Source of the DNA: Escherichia phage vB_EcoM_PHB13
DNA length: 64,000 nt
Strand: one strand, 5' to 3'
Sequence record: MK573636
The notes below the pieces were generated by a model. It was not told where the DNA came from and did not search any database. It saw nothing but the letters and a program-made list of their open reading frames with translations. Position numbers and translations under genes: made by a program. Shown in pieces: positions 29,406 to 58,329 of the stretch. The first letter of the stretch is position 1, and every line of letters starts with the position of its first letter.

Positions 29406-30220
29406 TGAAGAAAGCATTAGGTTTAATTCCCTATACTGGCAATAAGGAAAAGTTATTGCCTGGTGTTAGTAAGTATTTCCCTAAGCACTACAACCGCTTT
29501 GTTGATGCCTTTTGTGGTGGTTTGAGCGTGTCTCTGTATGTTGAAGGTGATGTGCTGGCTAATGACTATGATCACCGTTTAATTGACGCTTACAAGGCCA
29601 TTGATGCGTGTCCTGACCCAGTTTCTACGATCAAGCGGATTATTGCCGAGAATGGTTTGTCTCGCGATGATAAAGATGCTTACATGGCATTCCGCAAGAA
29701 GTATAACGAGAATCCAGATCCGCTATCTCTGTTTGTGTTGATTCAACATAGTTTTAGCAACATTAACCGCCATAACCGGAAGGGCGAATTTAATGCTAAT
29801 TTTGGTCGCCGGACTTTTAACGAAAACGCGGTAGAGCGTGTCCTGAATTTTAAGGAAGAAAACAAAGACGGTCGAATCAGTTTTACGTCTGGACGATATG
29901 ACGAGATCGAGATCTTGCCGGATGATTTCGTTTTCCTTGATCCGCCATATTGGATCACGTCGGCAGAATATAATAAGTTCTGGAGTGAAGAAGAAGAGAT
30001 TAAATTCTACATGTGGATAGAATCATTAATGTCTAGCGGTGCTAAGTTTGGATTAAGCAATGTTACTCACCACAAAGGGAAAGTTAACAACCATCTGCTC
30101 GATTTTATCGAACGTAATGATGTTTCTGTTGTTGAACTGGATAAAACATATTGTTTAGATCGTAGCGGGGGTAAAAAATCCGATACTAAGGAAGTTTATG
30201 TCACCAATGTTAAAATATGA
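29405..30220 (+). CDS. dam: DNA adenine methyltransferase (Dam-like, N6-A MTase)
   Basis: 271 aa; N-terminal AdoMet motif (FVDAFCGGLSV) and catalytic DPPY (FLDPPYW), typical of T4 Dam / GATC MTases. Confidence 0.85.
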   Translation: MKKALGLIPYTGNKEKLLPGVSKYFPKHYNRFVDAFCGGLSVSLYVEGDVLANDYDHRLIDAYKAIDACPDPVSTIKRIIAENGLSRDDKDAYMAFRKKYNENPDPLSLFVLIQHSFSNINRHNRKGEFNANFGRRTFNENAVERVLNFKEENKDGRISFTSGRYDEIEILPDDFVFLDPPYWITSAEYNKFWSEEEEIKFYMWIESLMSSGAKFGLSNVTHHKGKVNNHLLDFIERNDVSVVELDKTYCLDRSGGKKSDTKEVYVTNVKI

Positions 30221-30953
30221 GGTTATACACAAGACTCCAGAAGATAAACGTTTATATGATTTATATCATTCACGGTTTTATTATGATGATGGTTTTCTTA
30301 GGTGGAAGATTCACCCGCACCGAAAAGGTGTTATAAACGGATTAGCTGGAAGTGATACCCCCGATGGGTATCGTATTGTATGGACTGGCGAGCGATACGA
30401 ACGTATGCACCGTGTTATCTATCATATGTTTCATGGTCATTGTCCTAAGTATATAGATCATAAAGACCGAGATCGTTATAATAGCCGCATTGAAAACCTT
30501 AGAGAGACGACAAGCAAACAAAATAATATGAATATGAGCAAGACCAAATGCAAAACATATTCGAAGTATAAAGGTGTGTCGTTTAATAAGAATAAAGGTT
30601 ATTGGACTGGTGCAATAATGTTGGATGGGAAGTCGATACATTTAGGATATTTTCCCTCTGAGATCGGTGCGGCGTATGCATATAATCTTGCAGCGTTGAA
30701 ACATTTTGGTGATAGGTATTGTATAAACGAGATTGATGATATAGAATATGCAAAGTCTGAATATGGCAAGAAGCTCCAAAAAGCAGCAAGTTCCCGTCAT
30801 AGATACGTTTACAAAGTACCAAAACAAGGTAATTACGGTGCTAAAGTTCGCGGTGTGTATATAGGAAGATTTGACACAGAAGATGATGCGGCACGGGCAG
30901 TTAATGCCTATATTATTGAAAATGAACTTGATATAGAACTGAATGAGGTATAA
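30198..30953 (+). CDS. HNH-AP2 homing endonuclease
   Basis: 251 aa; HNH_3-type motif (IDHKDRDRYNSRIENLRETTSKQNNMN) followed by two AP2-like DNA-binding domains (YKGVSFNKNKGYWTGAI..., NYGAKVRGVYIGRFDTEDDAARAVNAYI). Start overlaps the last 23 nt of dam. Confidence 0.75.
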   Translation: MSPMLKYEVIHKTPEDKRLYDLYHSRFYYDDGFLRWKIHPHRKGVINGLAGSDTPDGYRIVWTGERYERMHRVIYHMFHGHCPKYIDHKDRDRYNSRIENLRETTSKQNNMNMSKTKCKTYSKYKGVSFNKNKGYWTGAIMLDGKSIHLGYFPSEIGAAYAYNLAALKHFGDRYCINEIDDIEYAKSEYGKKLQKAASSRHRYVYKVPKQGNYGAKVRGVYIGRFDTEDDAARAVNAYIIENELDIELNEV

Positions 30954-31797: not shown

Positions 31798-32070
31798 ATG
31801 CGTAAGATGTTTAAATCCGGTGTGGCCTATGTTTTTAAATCTGAGCAAGCACGTAAAGACTTCTTAGAGGATGACTACGAAGGTTTGAAAGATACCTACG
31901 AAGTCATCAAGAATGGGTTTACTGTTCTTAAAGTGTCACCTATTGGTTATGTAAGTGAAATCTCGGTTGATGGGAAAACATATACCGCTAAAGACTTTGA
32001 TCCGCGTTGGGAATTTATGCTTCTTCCGTGTGACCGCATTCTGTTTCGTGCTGTTCAATTAGTGAAATGA
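31798..32070 (+). CDS. hypothetical protein, FKVL/ERKYFKRI-family module
   Basis: About 90 aa; the ORF-track start at 31738 is the promoter TTG. Shares the GFxVLKV...G.V...DG..YTA.DF module with the next two genes. Confidence 0.45.
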   Translation: MRKMFKSGVAYVFKSEQARKDFLEDDYEGLKDTYEVIKNGFTVLKVSPIGYVSEISVDGKTYTAKDFDPRWEFMLLPCDRILFRAVQLVK

Positions 32071-32084
32071 TAGAGGATTATATT

Positions 32085-32645
32085 ATGGTACAGAAAACGT
32101 ATAAATTGTATCCGGCTAAGTCTTCAACTGATGCTGTTTTTGAACGAGGTCGTTATTACACTTTCCGTAATGCTGAGTCCGCAGAGGAATTTATCAAACG
32201 ATGTCCGCAACATAATAAGTTCTTGTATGACGTGCTTTGTAACGGCTTTAAAGTTCTCACTGTTGATGCGATGGGGCGTGTGTATCTGGTAGAAACTCAT
32301 GAGTATGAAGGTGCATCTGTTCTGATTGCTGCAAACGAGCGCAAATACTTTAAACGCATCACTAAAAAGCAGTTTGAAGAAATGAAACCAGTTAAGAAAG
32401 AAGAATCTCTGGGAGATCTGATTAACTTGTTTGGTAAAGTTCGCTCGATCTCCTTTGCGATTGAAGATGACATTACTGACAATAAAATCTTTATCAAGAG
32501 CGCGGAAGACCTGAAAGAGTTTCTTATTGAAAATAGATTTCGGCTGGAAACCTTTCTTGAAAGTGAAATTATTCGACATGATACTTACGCTAAATTCAGC
32601 GCCGATAAAGTAGCTGAACTGAAAGAGATCCAAAAGTCACTTTAA
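32085..32645 (+). CDS. hypothetical protein, FKVL/ERKYFKRI family
   Basis: About 186 aa from GAGGATTATATT-ATG; contains ...GFKVLTVDAMGRVYLVE...ERKYFKRITKKQFEEM. Confidence 0.45.
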   Translation: MVQKTYKLYPAKSSTDAVFERGRYYTFRNAESAEEFIKRCPQHNKFLYDVLCNGFKVLTVDAMGRVYLVETHEYEGASVLIAANERKYFKRITKKQFEEMKPVKKEESLGDLINLFGKVRSISFAIEDDITDNKIFIKSAEDLKEFLIENRFRLETFLESEIIRHDTYAKFSADKVAELKEIQKSL

Positions 32646-32708: not shown

Positions 32709-33887
32709 ATGGCTAAATTCTTTGAAGGTCATTACTATGCATTCCGTGAAGGTGGTAAAGATGAGTTTCTAGACTTTTCTCGCTATTCAATTATTCTGAC
32801 CGATGCTTCGCGCCGTGGTCATATTCGGGTTGCTGAAATCGTCGAAAAGGGCTTTAAAGTATTAGAAAAAGATGACAACGGTCATGTTATTACTATTGAA
32901 GCTGGAGATGTAGTTTATTCCGCTGAGGATATCGTTTATTATTGGGCTACTATGATTATGCACGATGAGCGTAAATACTTTAAACGCATCTCAAAAGAGG
33001 CATACGAAGCGATGAACAAGAAAGAGGATGCAATGCCGACTTACTTTGAAAAAGGTAAATGTTATTCGTTTACACCAGAAGGTTTGCAAGAATTTAAGCG
33101 ATTCTGGGGAGAGCATGATCCAGATCACAAAGAAGCTATGAAACTTGTTGATTTTGTCGAATATGGCTTTTTAGTTGAAGAAGAATTGCACGGATCAGCT
33201 ACCATGATCACCGCGAAAGGTGAAACTGTTAAGGCAGATCGTTTTTGTGATCAATGGGCTTGTGTGTTTGATGGTGGCGAATTTGAATACTTCGCGGAAA
33301 TCACGAAACAACAATTTCATTCTATGCAAGCGGATGGTCAGAGATTTAAAGTAGGTGAACGCTACAAGCCAAATCAGCATAATTTGCCATATTGGTTTAC
33401 CGCTGAAACTGTATCAAGTCATGTTGTTGAAATTGTTCAAAAGCTGGGACAAGGATTTAAGGTGACTAAAGTAGATGATTATGGAAGTGTTGACGCGGTT
33501 GAAATTGATGGTGTAGAATATACACCGAAATCTTTCGGGCTTTGCTGGTATCACTTGATCAGCAATGATGAACGTTATAACTTTGTTGAACTGCCATCTG
33601 AACCGGAAGAAGCACTAGAAGATCATGATCATCTGTCTGAACTGGTTAAACTGTTTGGTGATCTGCCGGATGGTGTAGGCGTGGCGGTAATGGGTGAAGG
33701 TACTGTTATTCGCAACCTGAAAGACCTTAAAAAGTTCTTGATTGACATGCTGCCTAAACTTGATGATAATCTCGATAAAGATATTCAGAATCGCAAAGAA
33801 ATTGTTAAAGATACTGAAAAAGAGATCGAAGAGATTCGAGCAATTCGCCAGAAGGTGAAAGCAGTAAAGAAAAAAGTTAGTGCTTGA
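32709..33887 (+). CDS. hypothetical protein, FKVL/ERKYFKRI family (multi-module)
   Basis: 392 aa with at least three related internal modules (GFKVLEKDDNGHV..ERKYFKRISKEAYEAM; GFLVEEELHG...; GFKVTKVDDYGSV...). Confidence 0.45.
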   Translation: MAKFFEGHYYAFREGGKDEFLDFSRYSIILTDASRRGHIRVAEIVEKGFKVLEKDDNGHVITIEAGDVVYSAEDIVYYWATMIMHDERKYFKRISKEAYEAMNKKEDAMPTYFEKGKCYSFTPEGLQEFKRFWGEHDPDHKEAMKLVDFVEYGFLVEEELHGSATMITAKGETVKADRFCDQWACVFDGGEFEYFAEITKQQFHSMQADGQRFKVGERYKPNQHNLPYWFTAETVSSHVVEIVQKLGQGFKVTKVDDYGSVDAVEIDGVEYTPKSFGLCWYHLISNDERYNFVELPSEPEEALEDHDHLSELVKLFGDLPDGVGVAVMGEGTVIRNLKDLKKFLIDMLPKLDDNLDKDIQNRKEIVKDTEKEIEEIRAIRQKVKAVKKKVSA

Positions 33888-33911
33888 CATGCGAAGGGAG
33901 TATGCTATAAT
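33884..33911 (+). promoter_or_regulatory. sigma70-type early promoter cassette with spacer palindrome
   Basis: TGCTTGACA-...GGGAGTATGCTATAATACTCCC...; consensus TATAAT within the palindrome. Confidence 0.55.
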
Positions 33912-33941: not shown

Positions 33942-34436
33942 ATGTGGGTACAAGATGTTTGGTATACTGTAACTAAAGAAAACCTTGACGCATTCAGCGA
34001 CCAATCTTGCGCTAATAGCTCAATTGCTGGTATACTTACTGATGTGTTTGGTGGTGTAGATAAAATTCGTTTTAAAGTTGTTGTTAGTTCGCTGGGTCAG
34101 GTGAAAGATCTTTACACCGAAGATAAAGACCTTGATCTTGAACTTCGTCTTCGTATTGATAATGCAAGTCTAGGTTATTGGTTTGAAGATAACGAATATG
34201 AATACTTCACACCAGCAATTAAAGTTTTTGCGACTAAACTGGAAGCTGTACTGAATCTACGACCAATTAATGTTGACGGCTACATTATCAAAAATATTCA
34301 GGATTGGGAGTTGTATCTAGATCAGGTTATCCGAAATAGTAAGCAGGAAGCCGCTAATAAGAAGCGACAAGAGATTAAACAGCTTAAAGCTGAACTGGAA
34401 GCGGCGGAAAAAGAATTAGCAGAACTGGTAAAATAA
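33942..34436 (+). CDS. hypothetical protein
   Basis: 164 aa; C-terminal coiled coil. Confidence 0.45.
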   Translation: MWVQDVWYTVTKENLDAFSDQSCANSSIAGILTDVFGGVDKIRFKVVVSSLGQVKDLYTEDKDLDLELRLRIDNASLGYWFEDNEYEYFTPAIKVFATKLEAVLNLRPINVDGYIIKNIQDWELYLDQVIRNSKQEAANKKRQEIKQLKAELEAAEKELAELVK

Positions 34437-34480: not shown

Positions 34481-36343
34481 ATGGAAAAACTAATCAAAGA
34501 CATTACAGAGATCGCAACGGGTAAAGAAAACGAAGTAAGCAAAGAGAACGCGAACAAAGACGCGCGAACATTCCCGACACGTCGAGATCTGATTGCTGGT
34601 GCTGTGTCTAAACAGATTGCTAAAACCGTGTTACCTGAGCACATCTATAAAGCGCATGTAGACGGTGACATTCATTATCATGATATGGATTATGCACCCG
34701 CTATGCCGTTTACTAACTGCTGTCTTGTTAATCTCAAAGACATGTTAGAGAATGGTTTTAAATTGGGTAGCGCACAAATCGAAAGTCCGAAATCAATCGG
34801 CGTTGCTTGTGCTGTAACCGCTCAAATTATCGCACAGGTGGCAAGTCATCAATATGGCGGGACCACAATCGCAAACATCGACCAGGTGTTAGCGCCGTAT
34901 GTTAAGAAAACATATCATAAACACCTTGCTGATGCCGAAGCCTACGGAATCAAAGCTGATACTCTCTATGCACAAGAGAAAACAGAAAAAGAAACGTTAG
35001 ACGGATATCAGGCGTTGGAATATGAGATCAACACTTTGTTCTCTACCAACGGTCAAACACCTTTTGTGACTTTAACCTTTGGTATGGGTACTAGCTGGGA
35101 AGAAAAACTGATTCAGAAAGCGATCCTGAAAGTTCGAACTAAAGGTTTAGGTAAAGACGGTATAACTCCGGTGTTTCCTAAGCTGGTGATGTTCTTAGAA
35201 GAAGGATTAAACCTTAAACCGGAAGATCCGAACTACGACATTAAGCAACTTGCATTGGAATGTTCTAGTAAGCGTCTTTACCCTGATTATATCTCTGCGA
35301 AGAATAACCGTAGCATCACTGGATCTAGTGTTCCGGTTAGCCCGATGGGTTGTCGTAGCTTCCTGGGTGTGTGGCATAATGATAAAGGCGAGGAAGTATT
35401 AGACGGACGTAATAACTTAGGTGTTGTGACTCTGAATCTTCCGCGTATTGCCCTTATTGCCGCTCGTCGTGCTGGTAAAGCGTCTGTAATGCGCAGAATT
35501 GAGCTATTCGAACAAGAGCTAGCTAATCGTATGCCTATTTGCTTTGATGCGCTCATGAGTCGCGTAGACGCTTTAAAAGGGGCTAAAGCCAATGTTGCTC
35601 CGGTGCTGTATACAGAAGGTGCATTTTTCCGTATTCATCAAAACGATGAAATTTTGGAAGTGTTGAAAGATGGTCGCGCTAGTATCTCTCTTGGGTATAT
35701 TGGTTTACATGAGGTATTGAGCGTCCTGTTTGGTGTTCATCCGTTTGATTCGGAAGATGCGCAGCGATACGGTAAACATATTCTTAAGATCTTGCGTCAT
35801 TATACTGAAAAATGGAAGGATGAAACCGGACTTGGGTTTAGTCTTTACGGTACGCCAGCCGAGAGCCTTTGCTATCGATTTAATCGACTGGATCGAGAGC
35901 AATTTGGTATTGTTAAGGGTGCTACCGATAAAGACTGGTACACCAACTCATTCCACCTTGACGTAGACCGGAAAGTCACACCATTTGAGAAAATCGACTT
36001 TGAGAAAGATTATCACTGGCTGGCGTCCGGTGGCATGATCTCTTATGTTGAGTTCCCAGACATGAAAAACAACCTGAAAGGTCTTGAAACTGTAGTAGAC
36101 TATGCAATGGATAAATTGCACTACTTCGGTGTTAATACTCCTTCTGATGTATGTCATGTATGCGGATCTAATAAGGAAATGAGAGCGACCGAGTCTGGTT
36201 TTGTTTGCCCTGATTGCGGCAATGACAATCTGGAAAAGATGAATGTTATCCGTCGCGTTAGTGGATATCTTGGATCTGTTGATCTGCGTCCATTCAACCA
36301 CGGGAAACACTCCGAGATGGTAAACCGCGTTAAGCACATGTAA
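34481..36343 (+). CDS. nrdD: anaerobic ribonucleoside-triphosphate reductase NrdD
   Basis: 620 aa; class III RNR size with C-terminal zinc ribbon (CHVCG...CPDCG) and glycyl-radical region (RRVSGYLGS). Uninterrupted reading frame, no intron. Confidence 0.9.
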   Translation: MEKLIKDITEIATGKENEVSKENANKDARTFPTRRDLIAGAVSKQIAKTVLPEHIYKAHVDGDIHYHDMDYAPAMPFTNCCLVNLKDMLENGFKLGSAQIESPKSIGVACAVTAQIIAQVASHQYGGTTIANIDQVLAPYVKKTYHKHLADAEAYGIKADTLYAQEKTEKETLDGYQALEYEINTLFSTNGQTPFVTLTFGMGTSWEEKLIQKAILKVRTKGLGKDGITPVFPKLVMFLEEGLNLKPEDPNYDIKQLALECSSKRLYPDYISAKNNRSITGSSVPVSPMGCRSFLGVWHNDKGEEVLDGRNNLGVVTLNLPRIALIAARRAGKASVMRRIELFEQELANRMPICFDALMSRVDALKGAKANVAPVLYTEGAFFRIHQNDEILEVLKDGRASISLGYIGLHEVLSVLFGVHPFDSEDAQRYGKHILKILRHYTEKWKDETGLGFSLYGTPAESLCYRFNRLDREQFGIVKGATDKDWYTNSFHLDVDRKVTPFEKIDFEKDYHWLASGGMISYVEFPDMKNNLKGLETVVDYAMDKLHYFGVNTPSDVCHVCGSNKEMRATESGFVCPDCGNDNLEKMNVIRRVSGYLGSVDLRPFNHGKHSEMVNRVKHM

Positions 36344-36349
36344 TTTTCA

Positions 36350-36381
36350 GCCGATCCGAAAGGGTCGGCTTTTTCGTTTTT
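36350..36381 (+). terminator. intrinsic terminator after nrdD
   Basis: GCCGATCCGAAAGGGTCGGC hairpin plus T-tract. Confidence 0.65.
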
Positions 36382-36386
36382 GGGTG

Positions 36387-36414
36387 TTGACAACCTGATT
36401 AGCTAATGTATAAT
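36387..36414 (+). promoter_or_regulatory. sigma70-type early promoter cassette
   Basis: TTGACA-N16-TATAAT followed by ...CATCGAAAACAACGAGAGG...ATG. Confidence 0.6.
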
Positions 36415-36443
36415 GCTCACATCGAAAACAACGAGAGGACAAC

Positions 36444-36986
36444 ATGATGATGATGTTTTGTGTACTGAGCAAAGAAGTTAAACTTCGTAAACTGGAAATT
36501 GGCGATGGTGTTGTTGTTAAAATGCACGCTAGCACATTGGCTAGTTTTAATTTAAAGGAAAGTTTTTTTATTAGAGGAACGGTGGTTAATGTCTGCTGGA
36601 GTCAAGGCGAAGGAATCCGTAGCTTTTGCGTAATTGACGATGATAATAACCTGTATGTGATTCGCTATCATAATAATTCTGTATTGGTCTATACCGACAA
36701 TTCACGAGAATTATATACTCTTGAATTTGTTAAGCGTACTGATTGCGACCGATTTGTTCGTGCTTATGAAGAAGATGGCTGTTTTGCGACTGAAACAGAA
36801 ACAAATGAATATGTTCCTATGGAAGTAGGAGCAGAAATTAAACACAAGATCACGGATCGTATTTTTAAGGTTGTGGCGGTTGCTCATACTCAATTTGTAG
36901 CGCAAGCGCCGGATGAAGAATTTATTATCTACAATATTGGTAATGCAAGTTCTCATTTTCATAATGTACTATATCGCGACCTTTGA
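36444..36986 (+). CDS. hypothetical protein
   Basis: 180 aa between nrdD and nrdG, where T4 has mobC / I-TevIII; no nuclease motif recognised. Confidence 0.45.
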   Translation: MMMMFCVLSKEVKLRKLEIGDGVVVKMHASTLASFNLKESFFIRGTVVNVCWSQGEGIRSFCVIDDDNNLYVIRYHNNSVLVYTDNSRELYTLEFVKRTDCDRFVRAYEEDGCFATETETNEYVPMEVGAEIKHKITDRIFKVVAVAHTQFVAQAPDEEFIIYNIGNASSHFHNVLYRDL

Positions 36987-37003
36987 TAATGTGTGAGGTG
37001 AAT

Positions 37004-37531
37004 ATGAAATCATTAAACCGTAAGCGTAAAGCACAACGACACAAAGAACTAGCTAAAAAGATTGCTATTGAACTGGTTGAGCGTGAGGATAGCTATTTGT
37101 CTACGGGTCGTTTGTATACATTCCATGCATTGATTGATGGTAAGCCAGTGTTGCATAATCATGATTGTTTGGCACTGTTTCACGAAATCAAACCAATTCA
37201 TCGTGAATGGGATGACAACAAAGCAAAAGGTCAATATTTCCTTACTTGTTCGTGTGGTCATGCTGGATGTGCTGGATATTGGGAACCTGTTACTATCCGT
37301 GAGAAAAATGATACCATTCAATGGGTCGCCCGTACCCGCGATGGTTATGATAAAGGTGCTGATGGTACTGGAGATAACGTAGTTTACTTTAATCGTGATT
37401 GGTATTATATGGCGCGATGTATGATCCTGTTTTATCTTGACTCGATGCCGTATGAATATTTCAGTTTCCAGAATGGGACCGAACTGACAGGGAAGGAATG
37501 GTCTGACTACATTCGAAAAAATTTAAAATAA
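37004..37531 (+). CDS. hypothetical protein
   Basis: About 175 aa from GAGGTGAAT-ATG; contains CSCGHAGCAG. Confidence 0.45.
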   Translation: MKSLNRKRKAQRHKELAKKIAIELVEREDSYLSTGRLYTFHALIDGKPVLHNHDCLALFHEIKPIHREWDDNKAKGQYFLTCSCGHAGCAGYWEPVTIREKNDTIQWVARTRDGYDKGADGTGDNVVYFNRDWYYMARCMILFYLDSMPYEYFSFQNGTELTGKEWSDYIRKNLK

Positions 37532-37535
37532 ATGC

Positions 37536-37564
37536 TTGACGGGGATCGCGAGATCCCCTATACT
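37536..37564 (+). promoter_or_regulatory. sigma70-type early promoter cassette with spacer palindrome
   Basis: TGCTTGACG-GGGATCGCGAGATCCCC-TATACT followed by ...ACGAGATAC...AGGAGAATCAAAT-ATG. Confidence 0.55.
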
Positions 37565-37606
37565 ATATTCATCAAGACGAGATACAACTTTACAGGAGAA
37601 TCAAAT

Positions 37607-37759
37607 ATGTGGACTTTACTGATTTGGGAAACTGAAAACGCACAAGTAGAAATCCGTGAATACGAATACCTAAGCCCAGCTTATCTATTAGCATCTCGCG
37701 GTGGTTACTATAAAGCGCAGATTGTAAACGAGTTCGGGGTAATTGAATATGAGTTCTGA
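37607..37759 (+). CDS. small hypothetical protein (50 aa)
   Basis: ATG at consensus distance from the cassette SD; the ORF-track start at 37532 lies in the promoter. Confidence 0.4.
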   Translation: MWTLLIWETENAQVEIREYEYLSPAYLLASRGGYYKAQIVNEFGVIEYEF

Positions 37760-38252
37760 TACATACGGCAAACTACGCTATGCCGATATTAAAGATTGTG
37801 ATATGGTTAACGGTGAGGGAGTGAGAGTCTCCCTTTACGTTACCGGATGTTCACACGCATGTGATGGTTGCTTTAATGCTAGCCTACTCAATCCTAAGAA
37901 CGGGGAACCATTCACCGATGATACAATGGGATTGATTCTGGATCTGCTTAGACCTGATTTTATTCAGGGGCTAACATTCTTAGGTGGCGATCCACTGTAT
38001 AAACGCAATTTAAAGGGTGTACAGCGGATCATCGATGAAGTAAAATCATGGATGCCAAATAAAGATATTTGGCTATGGTCTGGTTATACCCTTGACCAAT
38101 TGAATGATGAGCAAAGAAAAATTGTAGAATCAGTTGACATGTTCATCGATGGGCGTTATATTAAAGATATGCCAACGAAGAAGCCGTGGCGGGGGTCTGA
38201 CAATCAAGTACAATACAAGATTGTTAATAGTATTCCAGTGAAAATTATTTGA
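37743..38252 (+). CDS. nrdG: anaerobic RNR activating protein NrdG (radical SAM)
   Basis: 169 aa with radical-SAM Cx3Cx2C cluster motif (GCSHACDGC) and NrdG size; T4 order nrdD-nrdG. Confidence 0.8.
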   Translation: MNMSSDTYGKLRYADIKDCDMVNGEGVRVSLYVTGCSHACDGCFNASLLNPKNGEPFTDDTMGLILDLLRPDFIQGLTFLGGDPLYKRNLKGVQRIIDEVKSWMPNKDIWLWSGYTLDQLNDEQRKIVESVDMFIDGRYIKDMPTKKPWRGSDNQVQYKIVNSIPVKII

Positions 38253-38262
38253 GGTGATTATT

Positions 38263-38790
38263 ATGGAATGGGAAGTTGGTAAAACTTACAAGATTGAATG
38301 CGAAGCGTCGAAAGCCGAACTGACTAAATTTTCGTCGTCTATTAACAGATGTATTGTTGACTTGTTGGCTGGTCGCCCGTTTAGGGTAGAAGACCTTGAC
38401 GATGATGGTGATGTTAGAGAAATTACTATTATTGGTAGTAATTTCGACTCTATGACGTTAAAAGAATCCCCTATTGGCTGTTCCGGTGTGTGGTTTTGGT
38501 CGGGTGAGCGTCGTTTCTTTACCGAAGTTACTATTGAACCTAAGATTCCAGATTCGGAAGAAAAAGAAGAAGACCTAACTTTAGAACGCCTGGGTCTGCT
38601 TATGGAAGCCTACGACATTCAGTTGATCGATAAGATGGGGTTACATAATAGCATTGCCAAAATTACTACCCTAGAAGGTATTAAGAGCGTGCTTGATGGT
38701 ATGCCTAGCCGGATCGGTGCTATCCGAGAATACAAGCAAACGCGCGACCGTATGATCCAATTAGAATCACGTATCAAAAATGAGAGATGA
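38263..38790 (+). CDS. WExGKTY-family protein (paralog 1)
   Basis: About 175 aa starting MEWEVGKTYK. Confidence 0.45.
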   Translation: MEWEVGKTYKIECEASKAELTKFSSSINRCIVDLLAGRPFRVEDLDDDGDVREITIIGSNFDSMTLKESPIGCSGVWFWSGERRFFTEVTIEPKIPDSEEKEEDLTLERLGLLMEAYDIQLIDKMGLHNSIAKITTLEGIKSVLDGMPSRIGAIREYKQTRDRMIQLESRIKNER

Positions 38791-38794
38791 TATT

Positions 38795-39259
38795 ATGAAA
38801 TGGGAAGCTGGTAAGACCTATGCGTGGAAAGATGTAAAAGATGCAAACCAATTTTTTAAATGGTATGATGTTGATTATTTGAAATATCTGAGATTACCGT
38901 TTAAAGTTGCGTCGGTTGATGCGAAAAAAGGATACGTGCGGTCTGTTTATCTTCATGATGGAACTTATATGAGTTCAACCGATGTAGGTCTATCTTGTTG
39001 GTTTCTGGATCATGACCGTAGCAGATTTGAAGAAATTATTATTCCAGAAGAATCTAAATTAATTGATCTTCTCAAGTTGGCGATGGATAATTATAAAATC
39101 CGCTTTGAATGCAAATCACATGCGGCTATCGGTGCTAACGCCTTGCGTCATATCTCCAGTTTTGAAGAGTTGAAAGATTTTCTTGACAAAATGCCGGAAA
39201 GGGTGCAAGCTATACAGGAAGCAGAGAAAGCATTAAACGAACTTGATAAAATCGGTTAA
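38795..39259 (+). CDS. WExGKTY-family protein (paralog 2)
   Basis: About 154 aa starting MKWEAGKTYAWKD. Confidence 0.45.
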   Translation: MKWEAGKTYAWKDVKDANQFFKWYDVDYLKYLRLPFKVASVDAKKGYVRSVYLHDGTYMSSTDVGLSCWFLDHDRSRFEEIIIPEESKLIDLLKLAMDNYKIRFECKSHAAIGANALRHISSFEELKDFLDKMPERVQAIQEAEKALNELDKIG

Positions 39260-39271
39260 GGGGAATATATT

Positions 39272-40096
39272 ATGAAATGGGAAATTGGTAAAACTTACAC
39301 CTGGAAAGACGAAAACGCTAAAACTGAGTTTATTACTAACGGAGAAGGTGTTCTTTCTCCACTTAACAGCGATATTAGTGCAGCTATTGGTGACAAGCCA
39401 TTTACCATCATCGAGATCGAGGGTAACGGTTGGATTGATGCAATAGAGCTAGACGGTGTTTATCATACGGCGAAAACTGCTACAGGAAAAGACATTTGGA
39501 AGTCAACATATTTGTTTAGTCCATTTGATAGAAAATTCTTTCGTGAAGTTGAAGAAGTTCCCCAGAAATGGGAAGTTGGTAAAACTTATACTTGGAAAGA
39601 TATTAAGGCTATGACCGACTTCTGTCATTATGCCGAAAACGTATCTAACCTTAATTATGTTATTGCACGAGCAATAAATTATAGACCTTTTACTGTTAAA
39701 AATGTTCGTCCATGTGGGCAAATTGATGTAATTGAAATTGATGGTAAAGACCATACTCTAATGAGCGCAACCGAAGATAGAGACCATAAAGGAACTAGCT
39801 GGTTTATTGATTCTGATAGAAAATTCTTTCGTGAAGTAGAAGAATTGGAAGTTATAACCACTGATTCTAAGATCGTTGGACAGTTGAAACGTCTGTTTAG
39901 TAGTCGTTACGGCCTGACAATGGTTAAATTTGGCGAAGCAAATGAAGGTAAAACCTTTGAACGTTTCGATGATTTCATTTCGGCACTTGACAAGATGGAT
40001 GAAATCATGCAAGATCGCCAGAAGATTAAAGACCTTCAAGAAGACATTAAACGTCGTGAAGTTGAATTTTTGATTGGTAAAGAGCGAGGATGGTAA
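39272..40096 (+). CDS. WExGKTY-family protein (paralog 3, internally duplicated)
   Basis: 274 aa with two copies of the module (MKWEIGKTYTWKD... and ...QKWEVGKTYTWKD..., each ending DRKFFREVEE). Confidence 0.45.
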   Translation: MKWEIGKTYTWKDENAKTEFITNGEGVLSPLNSDISAAIGDKPFTIIEIEGNGWIDAIELDGVYHTAKTATGKDIWKSTYLFSPFDRKFFREVEEVPQKWEVGKTYTWKDIKAMTDFCHYAENVSNLNYVIARAINYRPFTVKNVRPCGQIDVIEIDGKDHTLMSATEDRDHKGTSWFIDSDRKFFREVEELEVITTDSKIVGQLKRLFSSRYGLTMVKFGEANEGKTFERFDDFISALDKMDEIMQDRQKIKDLQEDIKRREVEFLIGKERGW

Positions 40097-40097
40097 T

Positions 40098-40583
40098 ATG
40101 TTTGTTGCTGGCGTGACCTATCAGTGGAAAGATAAGAAAACGAGAGAAGATTTTGCAAACTTTAGCGTTGCAAATGATGCAATAGCAGAGTTTATCGGCG
40201 ACCGTCCATTTAAAGTTATTGCATTTGATCACCACCATGCATCGGATGTGAATTATGTTTCTGTGATTGAAATTGATGGCACGGTATACACCTGCTGCAA
40301 TGTTGATGATGTACGGGAATACGCGCACAACTGGTTTTTGCAATCAGAAGAACGTCATTTTAAAGTGGTATCGGCAGAGCTATCATCCGAAGCAATGTTG
40401 GAACAATTTTTCAACAACTACGAAGTTTCTGTACGTCGCTATGGCGAAGAAGAAGTGTTTAAAATCGATGATTACAATCAGTTTAAACGAGTATTCGCCA
40501 CTAAGTTACAGCGTGATTTTGAACGCGAGAAGCGCATCAAGGAACTGGAAGAAGAATTGGAAAGATTAAAGGCTGAGAAATGA
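40098..40583 (+). CDS. WExGKTY-family protein (paralog 4)
   Basis: About 161 aa starting MFVAGVTYQWKD. Confidence 0.45.
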   Translation: MFVAGVTYQWKDKKTREDFANFSVANDAIAEFIGDRPFKVIAFDHHHASDVNYVSVIEIDGTVYTCCNVDDVREYAHNWFLQSEERHFKVVSAELSSEAMLEQFFNNYEVSVRRYGEEEVFKIDDYNQFKRVFATKLQRDFEREKRIKELEEELERLKAEK

Positions 40584-40849
40584 TCGAGATATACGGTATA
40601 CCGAAAGAGGCTTATCATTGTTATGGTTGTATTAGTGCAATGAAGCTACTGGATGATCTGGGTATTCCGTATACACTTAAACCAGTATTCAAGCAGGTCG
40701 GGGTTGACATTATTCCCGACCGTGATATGATTGAAGAACTGGCGGGGAGGCTAAACTCAAAGAGCCTCCGGTTTGTATACCCCCAGATATTCATTGACAA
40801 CGAGCACATTGGAGGCTATAAAGAACTGAGGGCGATTTATGATTATTGA
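40580..40849 (+). CDS. nrdH: glutaredoxin-like protein NrdH
   Basis: 89 aa with CYGC redox motif and C-terminal PQIFIDNEHIGGY glutaredoxin signature; T4 nrdH position. Confidence 0.7.
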   Translation: MIEIYGIPKEAYHCYGCISAMKLLDDLGIPYTLKPVFKQVGVDIIPDRDMIEELAGRLNSKSLRFVYPQIFIDNEHIGGYKELRAIYDY

Positions 40850-40997
40850 GAATTTAGTTTCGGTGTTCATTATTGCTTTATTTGCTATAATGACTTTACC
40901 GTTGAAGAAGTGTAAACACTGTAACGGAACAGGATTGCGTGGTGATGGGTGTTGCGCTCATTGTCATGGATCTGGTAAAGTAAGTATCATTAAGTAA
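40839..40997 (+). CDS. small membrane-anchored protein with DnaJ-type zinc-finger repeats (52 aa)
   Basis: Sub-cutoff ORF: N-terminal TM helix followed by two CxxCxGxG repeats (CKHCNGTG, CAHCHGSG). Start overlaps the end of nrdH in another frame. Confidence 0.35.
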   Translation: MIIENLVSVFIIALFAIMTLPLKKCKHCNGTGLRGDGCCAHCHGSGKVSIIK

Positions 40998-41018
40998 TTC
41001 TTGAGTGAGGAATATATT

Positions 41019-41306
41019 ATGTTAGTACACAATGCAATCGCACACATGGTTTATTCTCGATTTGGGCGCAGGGAAGAAATCAATATTACCGACGCAGATT
41101 TAGATCTGATGCAAGTAGAAGGTCAGACATATCTGAAAAATAACGGCGTGAATATCGGTAAAGCGCGTGTGCGTGAATTGTTGGTTGAATATATTCTCTC
41201 TGAATTTGGCATTAGTGCTTTCGGTGTGAAAGAGCTTGCACCTAAGCGCGAAATTTCTGATAAAATGATCAAGAAATGCCAGAAAGCACGACGTAAGGGT
41301 TTCTAA
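41019..41306 (+). CDS. hypothetical protein
   Basis: About 95 aa from GAGGAATATATT-ATG; stop overlaps the start of the NTPase gene. Confidence 0.45.
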   Translation: MLVHNAIAHMVYSRFGRREEINITDADLDLMQVEGQTYLKNNGVNIGKARVRELLVEYILSEFGISAFGVKELAPKREISDKMIKKCQKARRKGF

Positions 41307-42775
41307 TGAAGATTGAAACATTAATCGCATTGCCAGCGGCGGGGAAAACTGATGCTATACTTTCCCACGTCCTAGAGACAAAAGAAAAAGCGGTTATTGC
41401 TTCGCCATCTCGTGTTTTAAGTGAACAATCTTACAATAAGTTTAAAAGAATGGGCGGTCGTGCTGTCTTGATCGATAGCACAAGACTAAGAAGCCTTAAG
41501 ACAGTGCAAGCGTCGATAATGCAATCAGTTAAAGACGGTGCTGATGTGATATTCATTACACATACAGCGTTATCTAATATGGAACGTTCAAAAATGTTTG
41601 GTGAATATGCTCTTTACATTGATGAAGTTCCTCAACTGGTTGAATTTAATGAGTATCCGTTTAAGTCTAATCTTGAACTTATCACGAAGCATTGCGAACC
41701 AATCGCCGACGAATCGGAATGCCTACAGAACTTAGTTCTAAAAGACTCTGAGAAGGCCGCTATCAAAGAAAAGATAGAAAGTGCAAAGGATGGTACTGAT
41801 ATGATCGATTCTTCTCTTAGAGGGCTTTATGAGGCGTTATTAGAGAAGAAAATCAACGTTATGGTAAAACATAACGAAGGACACCGGAAGAATGGGTCGA
41901 AAATTGTTTTCTTGAACGATAACAAACACGGTACGTGGGGAGACTTTAAAAAGGTTACGATAGCATGTGCAAATCTCTTTGATACATATAGCGGGAAGTA
42001 TCTACGATACTATGCAAATTGCGATTTTGTTCCGAGTGCGCTAGAATCCAGACTATATTTCAAAGAGTATAAAAATACAGATAGAGTTAATATCATCCTT
42101 ATGACGGACTCCGAACGATGGTCGCGTCACCAGTCAGAAACAAACAATACCTTTGAACGTCTTGTTGATATGGTTAAAAATGAATGTGGTGATGACTTCA
42201 TTTATACCGTGAATCGGGACCGTGAAGCGTGCACAAATGGTATTGGCGAGCGGATACCTTACGGATCTTATGGTCTTAACTCTTACATTCATCATAAAAA
42301 TGTTGCTGTGATGTTCAGCTTTAACCCTCAACGATGGGAGATTGATATTTTAAAAGGTCTTGCTAATAGTTGTGATCTCCCGACAAATGAGTTTTTGAAA
42401 GCGCGTCATGTGTCTGATTATCTGGAACCAGCATTTCAATTATGTTTGCGTTGTAACCTGAGAGACAACGAGAGCAAGGAGAATGTTAATCTATATGTTC
42501 CTGATTGGGCGTTGGTAGATTATCTAAAAACGTTTCTACCTAATGCCAATGTAATAACAGACAGAATGATTCCGCTAGAATGTGGTGAGCGTAAAGGGCG
42601 AAAATCATTTAAAAAGATGTTCGATTTTAACGAGCAAGAGAATGCAAGATTTAACGGATTTAAGTACCGCATGAAGAAAAAGGGAAAAACTCTTGATCCG
42701 TCTGACGGTGAATCAGTAGAGATGGTTAGAGTGTGGATAACTAAGCAAAGAAAGTATAATGGCAATGGGGAATAG
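41306..42775 (+). CDS. P-loop NTPase of unknown function
   Basis: 489 aa; Walker A-like LPAAGKT near the N-terminus and Walker B-like ALYIDEV about 95 residues later; no further helicase motifs recognised. Lies between nrdH and gene 55, where T4 has only small 55.x ORFs. Confidence 0.5.
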   Translation: MKIETLIALPAAGKTDAILSHVLETKEKAVIASPSRVLSEQSYNKFKRMGGRAVLIDSTRLRSLKTVQASIMQSVKDGADVIFITHTALSNMERSKMFGEYALYIDEVPQLVEFNEYPFKSNLELITKHCEPIADESECLQNLVLKDSEKAAIKEKIESAKDGTDMIDSSLRGLYEALLEKKINVMVKHNEGHRKNGSKIVFLNDNKHGTWGDFKKVTIACANLFDTYSGKYLRYYANCDFVPSALESRLYFKEYKNTDRVNIILMTDSERWSRHQSETNNTFERLVDMVKNECGDDFIYTVNRDREACTNGIGERIPYGSYGLNSYIHHKNVAVMFSFNPQRWEIDILKGLANSCDLPTNEFLKARHVSDYLEPAFQLCLRCNLRDNESKENVNLYVPDWALVDYLKTFLPNANVITDRMIPLECGERKGRKSFKKMFDFNEQENARFNGFKYRMKKKGKTLDPSDGESVEMVRVWITKQRKYNGNGE

Positions 42776-55916: not shown

Positions 55917-56234
55917 ATGGATAAGAAACCAACAAGTTTAGAAGAAGCACACAGCTTGATTCAAGAAGCAATGAAGACAGTTATCCAGGAACTGATAATT
56001 GTTGATGAAGAGGGAGAACATCATATTGTCTATATTCATAATGTTGAATACGATCCAGACACTAAAGGTATTGTGGTCGACTACTCCACGCCGTCAGATC
56101 GTGATGTGGTATATCCACACGTCATTAAGGCGTTAACCGCGCAGATCAAAGAAGCAGAAGAAAAGTTGAAAAAAGAAACTTTCTGGTATAAACTCAAGAC
56201 CTTTGTTATGCGTGTAGTTGGGGGCTATGTATGA
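55917..56234 (+). CDS. 40: gp40-like head vertex assembly chaperone (by position)
   Basis: 105 aa between uvsX and the gene 41 helicase, as gene 40 is in T4; C-terminal hydrophobic tail. Confidence 0.4.
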   Translation: MDKKPTSLEEAHSLIQEAMKTVIQELIIVDEEGEHHIVYIHNVEYDPDTKGIVVDYSTPSDRDVVYPHVIKALTAQIKEAEEKLKKETFWYKLKTFVMRVVGGYV

Positions 56235-57693: not shown

Positions 57694-58329
57694 ATGATCG
57701 CTAATGCTTTACCGCCAAAATGGATCGTAAGTCGCTTTTATACTCTCAAGGAAGGTAACGCACCTGATGGTCGTCCGATCCGAGATCTGTTTCTGGAGAT
57801 GACTACCGCCGAAGCACAATTTTATAATGATCTGACAGACGATAAGCCGTTTCTTGTAAATTCTGTGGATCTTGATGGTAATGTTACGTCAATTATCGCA
57901 CATGGTGGGGAAGTGAAAAATATTACTTCTCTGCGTGAACACGGTTGGGAAATTGCTTGTGTATTTCCTGCGGATGTACGCGGATTCTTTGATGAGGTAT
58001 CTGATATTAAAGTAAATGCACTAGAACCATATGACGAGATCCCACCACTGAAAGAAGAAAAAGAGTTGACACCGGAAGATGTAGATAGTACACTACACCC
58101 AGACCTATTTAAGAAGATTAGCGGTTTATGGACTGTTACCCTGCATCCAACCGCATTAGGTCTAGAATTGGGTATGCCAACTTATTCTGATATTGATAAT
58201 TGGACTAAGCATATTGATAAAGATGTTGAAAAACAGCGAAATAATGCTAAAATGCAACTTAAAGAGAAACGAAAAGATCTTGAACGACAACTGAAAGAAA
58301 CCAAACATTTGCTTTCTACGTTCGCTTGA
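57694..58329 (+). CDS. hypothetical protein
   Basis: 211 aa. Confidence 0.4.
   Translation: MIANALPPKWIVSRFYTLKEGNAPDGRPIRDLFLEMTTAEAQFYNDLTDDKPFLVNSVDLDGNVTSIIAHGGEVKNITSLREHGWEIACVFPADVRGFFDEVSDIKVNALEPYDEIPPLKEEKELTPEDVDSTLHPDLFKKISGLWTVTLHPTALGLELGMPTYSDIDNWTKHIDKDVEKQRNNAKMQLKEKRKDLERQLKETKHLLSTFA

What the first reader, a model, noticed from the sequence alone, without database searches (positions are those of the whole stretch)
38263..40583. Four-gene WExGKTY(x)WKD family between nrdG and nrdH, including an internally duplicated member
Four adjacent genes start with near-identical N-termini (MEWEVGKTYK, MKWEAGKTYAWKD, MKWEIGKTYTWKD, MFVAGVTYQWKD). The third (39272-40096) contains two complete modules, each ending DRKFFREVEE, which indicates an in-frame tandem duplication. 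C-terminal halves end in coiled-coil segments.
Basis: seen in the sequence. Interest (0 to 1): 0.5.

Follow-up and report, generated by a model that had tools for sequence, protein, structure and literature searches.

The report
GoF-family gene array with swappable modules
Four neighbouring genes of an RB49-like T4-type coliphage are divergent relatives of the T4 early protein GoF, whose normal function is unknown; each joins a fast-varying small beta-barrel module to a constant tail, and related phages swap, lose or fuse these modules by recombination at short conserved stretches.

Summary
Four adjacent + strand genes (38263-40583) between nrdG and nrdH share an N-terminal ~90-aa module, and the third gene carries two modules, each ending DRKFFREVEE. 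The window is a Krischvirus (RB49-like); the genes are RB49p051-p048, annotated hypothetical.

The "tandem duplication" reading is only partly right. The two gene-3 modules are 39% identical inside, no closer than modules of different genes. Across 14 related genomes every N-module occurs as deeply divergent alleles (27-67% DNA identity) between C-terminal domains and flanks that are mostly 93-100% identical. Alleles assort independently. Natural deletions and a fusion have junctions in the conserved KWEVGKTYTWKD and DRKFFREVEE coding patches or in microhomology.

Function is unknown; a variable binding module on a constant tail is my inference. This is a new member of a family defined in 2025, of moderate interest.

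The parts
37749..38252 (+). nrdG (anaerobic ribonucleotide reductase activase), upstream flank; 93-100% identical in DNA across 14 Krischvirus genomes
   Evidence: Pfam Fer4_12 2.4e-43 and phrog_626; RB49 annotation; sliding identity
38134..38162 (+). sigma-70-like promoter match (TTGACA-17-TATATT, 11 of 12) inside the 3' end of nrdG; candidate early promoter for the array (consensus match only)
38263..38790 (+). Gene A (175 aa, = RB49p051): N-module aa 1-93 (38263-38541), acidic linker, C-terminal domain from about 38572
   Evidence: phrog_5347 1.8e-66; alleles A1/A2
38795..39259 (+). Gene B (154 aa, = RB49p050): N-module aa 1-85 (38795-39049) and C-terminal domain (39050-39256), modelled as alpha-beta-beta-alpha plus a long helix
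   Evidence: AF2 model pLDDT 83; alleles B1/B2/B3
39272..40096 (+). Gene C (274 aa, = RB49p049): module C1 (39272-39562), module C2 (39563-39850), C-terminal domain (39851-40093)
   Evidence: AF2 model; orthologue variants
40098..40583 (+). Gene D (161 aa, = RB49p048): N-module aa 1-94 (40098-40379) and C-terminal domain (40380-40580)
   Evidence: alleles D1/D2
38259..38290 (+). Start patch, copy 1 (RBS-proximal bases plus codons for MEWEVGKTY = beta1)
38791..38822 (+). Start patch, copy 2 (gene B)
39268..39299 (+). Start patch, copy 3 (module C1); the conserved stretch runs on to about 39309, and the AV108/P0055 deletion junction lies at its TGGAAAGA end (39302-39309; copy 4: 39593-39600)
39559..39590 (+). 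Start patch, copy 4 (module C2, internal to gene C)
39514..39556 (+). End patch, copy 1 (codons for ..DRKFFREVEE = alpha3/beta5 of C1); the ELT4-type deletion crossover lies in its 23-nt identical core
39802..39844 (+). End patch, copy 2 (C2)
40580..40849 (+). nrdH (glutaredoxin-like), downstream flank; overlaps the stop of gene D
31798..32070 (+). Further family member: 90-aa protein that is one N-module only (phrog_16115)
32067..32645 (+). Further family member (192 aa; N-module plus similar C-terminal architecture; RB49p059, annotated 'goF mRNA metabolism modulator')
32709..33887 (+). Further family member (392 aa; three N-modules plus C-terminal domain; RB49 'frd.2', annotated 'goF mRNA metabolism modulator')
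57694..58329 (+). Further family member (211 aa, RB49 'dc2'), immediately downstream of the gene 41 helicase

Best explanation
The locus is a tandem array of four paralogous accessory genes of the GoF superfamily of T4-type phages. SHOWN: each protein has one N-terminal module of about 90 aa (gene C has two), homologous to the T4 GoF N-terminal domain. The module is predicted to fold as an SH3-like five-stranded beta-barrel with a helical hairpin inserted between beta1 and beta2. It is followed by a gene-specific C-terminal domain (helix, two strands, long charged helix). SHOWN: among closely related phages the N-modules behave as exchangeable cassettes. Each exists as old, deeply divergent alleles that assort independently, while the C-terminal domains and flanking genes are nearly identical. 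Modules are deleted, replaced or fused by recombination whose junctions lie in the conserved beta1 (KWEVGKTYTWKD) and beta5 (DRKFFREVEE) coding patches or in short microhomology. Gene C is therefore a two-module member whose second module is an optional, replaceable cassette, not a recent duplicate. INFERRED: the proteins are early, dispensable host-takeover factors. The acidic, variable N-module is the recognition surface, more likely for a protein than for RNA. The conserved C-terminal domain supplies a constant activity such as self-association or docking to a conserved partner. The allele polymorphism (50:50 for gene B) would then reflect selection for different recognition specificities.
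For: Identity: the module profile aligns with GoF residues 3-91 (hhalign 96.3%, E 2e-9). A broader profile that does not contain GoF gives 97.7%, E 2.6e-12. All four proteins hit phrog_5347 and phrog_622; T4 GoF hits both, and Frd.2 hits phrog_622.
Family size: 8 ORFs with 11 modules in the window; 123 representatives among 1.84 billion proteins; 64 BFVD matches, all uncharacterised proteins, almost all from T4-like phages.
Cassette behaviour: DNA identity drops to 27-67% exactly over each N-module and is mostly 93-100% in the C-terminal domains and nrd flanks. Allele tables for 14 genomes are. All four B/D allele combinations occur.
Junctions: ELT4, AV108, P0055, P0061 and the P0069 fusion. 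Codon identity is in excess at module edges only.
Selection: omega is 0.2-0.35 in the N-modules and 0.01-0.06 in the C-terminal domains of B, C and D; the gene A value (0.15) includes a frameshifted copy. dS between allele types is about 1.1-1.5 for A, B and D (0.6 for gene C as a whole), against 0.1-0.5 in the C-terminal domains.
Location of variation: it sits in the alpha1-alpha2 hairpin and the beta4-alpha3 segment. By my reading of the hhalign alignment, GoF D25, site of the D25Y gain-of-function mutation (PMC12152347), falls in that hairpin.
Charge: N-modules are acidic, pI 4.5-5.6.
Confidence: 0.6

Rival explanations
1. A recent in-frame tandem duplication of one module inside gene 3, within a simple family made by gene duplication and steady divergence.
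For: Two complete modules lie head to tail in one ORF, with 92-97% identical DNA at their starts and ends. C1 and C2a show the highest full-length identity among non-allelic modules (51%).
Against: Interior identity is 39%, no higher than C2a against B1 (43%). Interior synonymous sites are at the chance level, and only the edges share codons. C2 is replaced by an unrelated module type in four of the 14 genomes compared. Independent single-module alleles keep either C1 or C2.
Confidence: 0.08
2. The proteins are LSm/Hfq-like RNA chaperones that bind and stabilise phage mRNAs, as proposed for the GoF family from GoF(D25Y).
Confidence: 0.15
3. The variable N-modules are specificity cassettes in an arms race, for example inhibitors or decoys for variable host defence proteins or for competing phages, kept polymorphic by frequency-dependent selection.
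For: Old alleles sit in a young backbone: N-module dS is about 1.1-1.5 for A, B and D, against 0.1-0.5 in the C-terminal domains. Gene B is a 29:29 dimorphism with no intermediates. Alleles reassort independently over about 1 kb. Variation is concentrated in one hairpin and one loop of a conserved scaffold. The family is expanded into many paralogues.
Against: No match to any known defence or anti-defence family (PADLOC, NCBIfam, Pfam). Omega is below 1. No host or defence association was tested. Alleles of A and C2 are rare, not balanced.
Confidence: 0.2
4. The genes are decaying, functionless ORFan filler in a hyperplastic region, and the variation is neutral.
For: Broken copies and array collapse occur in nature. 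T4 relatives are non-essential (PMC12152347). The region lies among other unknown small genes.
Against: Both domains are under purifying selection: omega 0.2-0.35 in the modules and as low as 0.01 in the C-terminal domains. Core fold residues are kept across alleles that are about 30% identical. All four genes are intact in most of the 58 GenBank genomes. C-terminal domains are 97-100% conserved.
Confidence: 0.05
5. The proteins are FeoA-like accessory factors linked to iron or Fe-S metabolism of the neighbouring anaerobic ribonucleotide reductase genes.
Confidence: 0.03

Closest known systems
T4 GoF (ComC-alpha) and the GoF/Frd.2/MotB.1 'LSm-like fold' family (Kim et al. 2025, PMC12152347)
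   Same: The N-terminal domain of about 90 aa is homologous (hhalign 96-98% to GoF residues 3-92), with shared PHROG profiles. The predicted five-stranded barrel and its structural neighbours (FeoA, IdeR-SH3) are the same. The proteins are acidic, the genes are dispensable T4-type phage genes on the early strand, and a variable C-terminal domain follows a linker.
   Different: The genes are not at the goF locus, which RB49 lacks. They form a four-gene tandem array within an 8-gene expansion. The C-terminal domain (alpha-beta-beta plus long charged helix) does not align with GoF's. One member has two modules. Similarity to Frd.2 and MotB.1 individually is weak (12.8% and 32%). The paper does not mention RB49/Krischvirus, multi-module members or allelic module exchange.
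RB49 'frd.2' (RB49p058, 392 aa) and RB49p059, annotated 'goF mRNA metabolism modulator'
   Same: Same phage, same N-module (three copies in the 392-aa protein), a similar C-terminal architecture, and a position only about 4.4 kb upstream.
   Different: They belong to a different PHROG (phrog_8944, against phrog_5347) and have a GFKV rather than PFxV beta2 motif. The four genes of the finding are annotated only as hypothetical.
PeSL-mediated modular shuffling in RB49/phi1-type phages (Arbiol et al. 2010, PMC2839356; PMC4122927)
   Same: The same phage group and the same outcome: insertion, deletion and replacement of non-essential early genes in hyperplastic regions through short conserved sequences.
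   Different: PeSLs are intergenic promoter plus stem-loop cassettes that move whole genes. Here the conserved sequences are coding (beta1 and beta5 of the module) and the unit exchanged is a protein domain inside a gene. There are no inverted repeats or terminator-like sites within 38200-40650, and the locus is not mentioned in that paper.
Hypervariable segments bounded by conserved glycine-rich motifs in T4-superfamily gp38 adhesins (from memory, not checked here: Trojet et al. 2011)
   Same: The design principle: conserved short motifs delimit hypervariable segments and serve as recombination sites, giving mosaic specificity determinants on a constant scaffold.
   Different: An unrelated protein with a structural (virion) role in receptor binding. 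Here whole folded domains of intracellular early proteins are exchanged.
FeoA and the DtxR/IdeR C-terminal SH3-like domain; PcrA/UvrD and CarD Tudor-like domains
   Different: There is no sequence relationship. The helical hairpin between beta1 and beta2 is specific to the phage family. Genomic contexts differ.

Membership tests
GoF/Frd.2/MotB.1 family (PMC12152347) | Profile-level sequence homology of the N-terminal domain to T4 GoF, Frd.2 or MotB.1 | tested here: met
   hhalign to GoF 96.3% (E 2e-9) and 97.7% (E 2.6e-12), covering GoF 3-92. Shared hits to phrog_622, 5347 and 3710. Weak to Frd.2 (12.8%) and MotB.1 (32%).
GoF/Frd.2/MotB.1 family (PMC12152347) | N-terminal half predicted as a bent five-stranded antiparallel beta-sheet or barrel, with FeoA / IdeR-type SH3 domains as nearest solved folds | tested here: met
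GoF/Frd.2/MotB.1 family (PMC12152347) | C-terminal domain of variable structure joined by a flexible linker | tested here: met
   Low-confidence linker (191-199 in C) and a distinct C-terminal domain. That domain does not align to GoF's.
GoF/Frd.2/MotB.1 family (PMC12152347) | Non-essential gene of a T4-type phage | tested here: met
   The genome is a Krischvirus, Straboviridae. Natural isolates carry frameshifted, split, deleted or fused copies.
GoF/Frd.2/MotB.1 family (PMC12152347) | Early expression and high abundance | not testable with these tools
   Only a sigma-70-like consensus match at 38134-38162 and co-orientation with early genes.
GoF/Frd.2/MotB.1 family (PMC12152347) | Effect on mRNA level or stability (shown only for the GoF D25Y mutant) | not testable with these tools
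   Needs reporter or RNA half-life assays.
Sm/LSm/Hfq proteins | Sm fold: N-terminal helix followed by five bent strands, with structural similarity to Hfq/Sm | tested here: not met
Sm/LSm/Hfq proteins | Basic RNA-binding surfaces | tested here: not met
   N-modules have pI 4.5-5.6 and net charge -3 to -7.5 (B1 is about neutral); Hfq core pI is about 10. This is whole-domain charge, not a surface map.
Sm/LSm/Hfq proteins | Ring-shaped hexamer or heptamer | not testable with these tools
   No multimer prediction is available here. PMC12152347 reports no confident AlphaFold3 multimers for GoF or MotB.1.
FeoA / DtxR-IdeR SH3-like domain | Sequence membership (Pfam FeoA) and association with feoB or a metal-dependent repressor | tested here: not met
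   No Pfam hit, no PDB sequence hit, and the genomic context is nrdG/nrdH in a phage.
PeSL regulatory cassettes (PMC2839356) | Intergenic strong sigma-70 promoter next to a stem-loop terminator flanking the exchanged unit | tested here: not met
   Genes A-D are separated by 1-12 nt. No terminator-like site and no inverted repeat lie within 38200-40650. Junctions are in coding sequence. A PeSL-like element does occur at 36349-36414, outside the array.

The most novel reading that the evidence does not exclude
The GoF-type modules form a phage-encoded repertoire of interchangeable recognition domains. Each gene pairs a constant C-terminal effector or assembly domain with an N-terminal barrel whose hairpin and loop surface sets target specificity. 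Conserved beta1/beta5 coding patches act as built-in recombination linkers, so co-infecting phages can shuffle specificities. On this reading the array would be a domain-level diversity system for intracellular early proteins, possibly countering variable host defences, and the 50:50 gene B dimorphism would be maintained by frequency-dependent selection.
Probability: 0.2. Interest if true: 0.65.

Novelty: new member of a known kind. Interest (0 to 1): 0.4.

Why it matters
The GoF family was recognised only in 2025 and still has no known wild-type function. This locus shows three things. The family is much larger in RB49-type phages (8 genes and 11 modules in 64 kb, against three genes described in T4). 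Its barrel domain is the unit of evolution. Nature has already made a set of allele swaps, deletions and fusions on a nearly isogenic background. That offers a practical route to function. Variation is concentrated in the alpha1-alpha2 hairpin, where by my alignment the GoF D25Y gain-of-function mutation also lies, so that hairpin is the candidate active surface. The natural allele pairs (B1/B2, D1/D2, C2a/C2b) are ready-made material for partner and host-range tests. The locus also adds an intragenic, domain-level example to the known gene-level shuffling in T4-type hyperplastic regions.

Tried and rejected
Family libraries:
- Pfam, NCBIfam and PADLOC gave only sub-threshold noise for the four proteins and their paralogues.
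- A PDB sequence search with the module profile gave nothing meaningful.
- Rfam found no RNA family in 36000-42000 on either strand, and no inverted repeats lie in the array.

Searches that fell short:
- IMG/VR held only two related loci, so population analysis used GenBank records and protein-database clusters.
- The first homologue search was limited to Krischvirus orthologues by its word index. The profile search was dominated by GoF orthologues because GoF was one of its rows.
- A Krischvirus comparative-genomics literature search returned nothing relevant.

Hits discarded:
- Several very long hits in the exhaustive search have only short matched stretches. The two I read (P0201, P0209) are bacterial repeat proteins and were discarded as spurious.

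Ideas considered and rejected or downgraded:
- Recent tandem duplication was rejected.
- The coiled-coil claim was tested by heptad periodicity and is not significant.
- Import of the alternative alleles from other phage genera was not supported: all tblastn matches of at least 60% identity are Krischvirus.
- The ORF at 33942-34436, which I first counted as a member by eye, is not recruited by the iterative profile search and has only a weak phrog_3710 hit. It is listed as a candidate only.
- ORFs 36444-36986 and 36983-37531, between nrdD and nrdG, belong to unrelated PHROGs.
- A link to the neighbouring nrd genes through the FeoA resemblance was considered and rejected (see rival explanations).
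Full report
OBSERVATION. The window is an RB49-like T4-type coliphage (genus Krischvirus). The region 37700-40900 matches 58 phage records at 90-98% identity, best FL15 at 98.0% and RB49 at 95.8%. They correspond to RB49p051-p048, all annotated 'hypothetical protein', between nrdG and nrdH. Pairwise BLASTP gives 25-30% identity (E 3e-4 to 1e-15 on the four-sequence database). A profile of the modules finds two complete modules in gene C, aa 1-97 and 98-193, both ending DRKFFREVEE. At the DNA level the only repeats are short patches. One is a 32-nt start patch in four copies (78-100% identical). The other is a 43-nt end patch shared by C1 and C2 (86%; core 31 nt at 97%). The 'coiled-coil' part is supported only as long, highly charged predicted helices, because heptad periodicity is not above shuffles.

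WHAT THE MODULE IS. Pfam, NCBIfam and PADLOC have nothing. All four proteins belong to phrog_5347 (E 1e-55 to 1e-92). They also hit phrog_622, phrog_3710 and PHROGs annotated 'goF mRNA metabolism modulator'. T4 GoF itself hits phrog_622 (5e-38) and phrog_5347 (6.5e-7), and T4 Frd.2 hits phrog_622. A profile of the five modules aligns end to end with the T4 GoF N-terminal domain (module 1-91 to GoF 3-91; hhalign 96.3%, E 2e-9). A 25-sequence full-length profile that contains no GoF gives 97.7%, E 2.6e-12, again limited to GoF 4-92. Matches to T4 Frd.2 and MotB.1 are weak. Kim et al. [quoted passage not shown] Wild-type function is unknown, the genes are non-essential, and only GoF(D25Y) stabilises a gene 41 leader RNA. 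That paper does not mention RB49, multi-module members or tandem arrays.

THE WIDER FAMILY. An iterative profile search of all window ORFs converges on 8 ORFs with 11 modules. These are A, B, C (two modules) and D, plus 31798-32070 (module only), 32067-32645, 32709-33887 (three modules; RB49 'frd.2') and 57694-58329 (RB49 'dc2', next to gene 41). The ORF at 33942-34436 looks similar by eye but is not recruited. RB49 lacks goF at its T4 position. An exhaustive HMM search of 1.84 billion representatives returns only 123 proteins at E <= 1e-3. Most are 120-260 aa, about twenty have two modules and three have three. Several very long hits have only short matched stretches; the two I read are repeat proteins and spurious. 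BFVD gives 64 structural matches, all uncharacterised proteins, almost all from T4-like phages of many hosts. Multi-module members are thus normal for the family. The C-terminal architecture seen here recurs in distant single-module relatives, while other relatives carry a GoF-type tail.

POPULATION VARIATION. I compared the array in 14 genomes: the window, 11 GenBank Krischviruses and 2 IMG/VR contigs. In 60-nt windows, DNA identity to the window is mostly 93-100% in nrdG, nrdH and every C-terminal domain. It falls to 27-67% exactly over an N-module wherever the allele differs. Every gene is polymorphic in its module and nearly invariant in its tail:
- Gene A has allele A1 and allele A2 (FL04, UPWr_E1, one IMG/VR contig), with interiors 43% identical.
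- Gene B has B1 and B2 (44%), plus a third allele, P0070, on an identical tail.
- Module C1 has a 011D4 variant.
- Module C2 has C2a and C2b (29%, no closer than unrelated modules).
- Gene D has D1 and D2 (55%).
All four B/D combinations occur (window, RB49, Makalu_003, PTE-Eco09), so recombination separates loci about 1 kb apart. Among 58 GenBank records B2 and B1 are 29:29 with no intermediates. A2 is in 4 records and C2b in 3. The RB49-type D module is in 37, the window type in 12 and intermediates in 9. No module allele is found outside Krischvirus.

JUNCTIONS.
- ELT4, P0056 and P0060 keep C1 only. In ELT4 the crossover lies within the 23-nt identical core GATAGAAAATTCTTTCGTGAAGT of the end patch.
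- AV108 and P0055 keep C2 only. In AV108 the crossover lies at the TGGAAAGA end of the start patch.
- P0061 is C1 followed by the b-type linker.
- P0069, on a 10-kb Logan contig, fuses the first 153 nt of gene A to the tail of C2b through about 20 nt of imperfect microhomology. This removes the rest of A, all of B, C1 and most of C2b; gene D on that contig is split.
- Broken copies also occur in ELT4 (D), PTE-Eco09 (C) and an ECD7-like contig (A).
At residues identical between C1 and C2, the same codon is used at 15 of 19 edge sites (9.2 expected, P = 0.005) but at only 11 of 28 interior sites (11.3 expected). Over all module pairs the counts are 70 of 109 (51.4 expected) at the edges and 78 of 179 (74.3 expected) in the interiors. 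The edges are therefore more alike at the DNA level than the interiors, as expected if they are the sites of exchange or conversion.

SELECTION AND WHERE VARIATION LIES. Nei-Gojobori estimates give omega of 0.21-0.34 in the N-modules. In the C-terminal domains of B, C and D omega is 0.01-0.06; the gene A value (0.15) is inflated by a frameshifted copy. Between allele types dS is about 1.1-1.5 in the modules of A, B and D (0.6 for gene C as a whole), against 0.1-0.5 in the tails. Both parts are constrained. The module alleles are much older than the backbone that carries them. Across 11 module types, beta1 (0.66) and beta5 (0.70) are the most conserved elements. The alpha1-alpha2 hairpin (0.12-0.22) and the beta4-to-alpha3 segment (0.13-0.21) are the most variable. 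By the hhalign alignment, GoF D25 falls in the alpha1 end of that hairpin.

MECHANISM. Shown: family identity, fold class, domain architecture, the cassette-like population structure and the recombination junctions. Inferred: the proteins are early accessory factors, based on a consensus promoter at 38134-38162, co-orientation with early genes and dispensability. The variable, acidic barrel is inferred to be a recognition surface, more likely for a protein than for RNA. The conserved tail is inferred to provide a constant function, possibly self-association; the GoF paper saw dimer-sized bands for GoF and MotB.1. The polymorphism may reflect selection for alternative specificities, but omega below 1 and the lack of any phenotype leave this open. 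Rivals are listed with their evidence. Recent tandem duplication, neutral junk and an nrd/iron link are disfavoured. An Hfq-like RNA chaperone role is possible but does not fit the charge or fold details. An arms-race role is the most interesting reading that remains open.

COMPARISON AND VERDICT. These are new, divergent members of the recently defined GoF superfamily, with a distinct tail, arranged as an array inside a lineage-specific expansion. The exchange mechanism resembles the PeSL-mediated gene shuffling described for RB49 and phi1 (PMC2839356). It differs in using coding patches and in moving domains rather than genes, and that paper does not mention this locus. I rate it 'new member of a known kind' with moderate interest (0.4).

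Noticed in passing
window 36349-36414: A GC-rich stem-loop with a T run (36349-36370) is followed 17 nt later by a perfect sigma-70 consensus promoter (TTGACA-16-TATAAT, 36387-36414), just downstream of nrdD. This is the layout of the PeSL cassettes described for RB49 and phi1.
   Followed up: no
window 33884-33911: A second perfect 12-of-12 sigma-70 promoter match with an extended -10 TG lies directly upstream of the ORF 33942-34436. That ORF resembles the family by eye but is not recruited by the profile search.
   Followed up: partly
window 57694-58329 (next to 56231-57643): The family member annotated 'dc2' in RB49 and ECD7 lies immediately downstream of the gene 41 helicase (DnaB_C hit). 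T4 GoF(D25Y) is known for raising gene 41 mRNA, so the adjacency may or may not be a coincidence.
   Followed up: partly
window 30198-30953: A 251-aa ORF with HNH_3 (2.2e-13) and AP2 (1.1e-08) domains, that is, a homing-endonuclease-type gene, lies just upstream of the nrdC-like thioredoxin and gene 49. The RB49 record lists dam at the corresponding position beside nrdC; I did not compare the two.
   Followed up: partly
window 32709-33887: The RB49 'frd.2' homologue (392 aa) contains three N-modules plus a C-terminal domain resembling those of genes A-D. It is the largest multi-module member in the window.
   Followed up: partly
L016 3001-3938 (Logan SRR11185258 contig): A natural Krischvirus in which the four-gene array has collapsed to one fused gene (A N-terminal half, C2b tail and C tail) plus a split gene D, with nrdG and nrdH intact.
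   Followed up: yes
L003 3048-3544 (ELT4); L015 2510-3333 (PTE-Eco09); L008 7521-8012 (ECD7-like): Individual isolates carry split or frameshifted copies of gene D, gene C and gene A respectively. These could be true pseudogenes or sequencing errors.
   Followed up: partly
window 41306-42775: A 489-aa ORF two genes downstream of nrdH (after 55.2-like DUF7570) has a DEAD/DEAH helicase N-terminal match just above Pfam's threshold (27.4 bits, cut-off 26). It is annotated hypothetical in RB49.
   Followed up: no
window 39727-39744 and 40262-40279: An 18-nt stretch coding VIEIDG (beta3/beta4 turn) is 94% identical between module C2 and gene D's module. It is a third short conserved patch inside the modules that could also serve as a recombination site.
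   Followed up: no
window 38254-38262 and 38780-38794: Start-codon ambiguity: the mechanical ORF list extends gene A to a GTG at 38254 and gene B to an ATG at 38780 (MRDDIM...), overlapping the end of gene A. The RB49 annotation and the conserved MKWE motif favour 38263 and 38795.
   Followed up: partly
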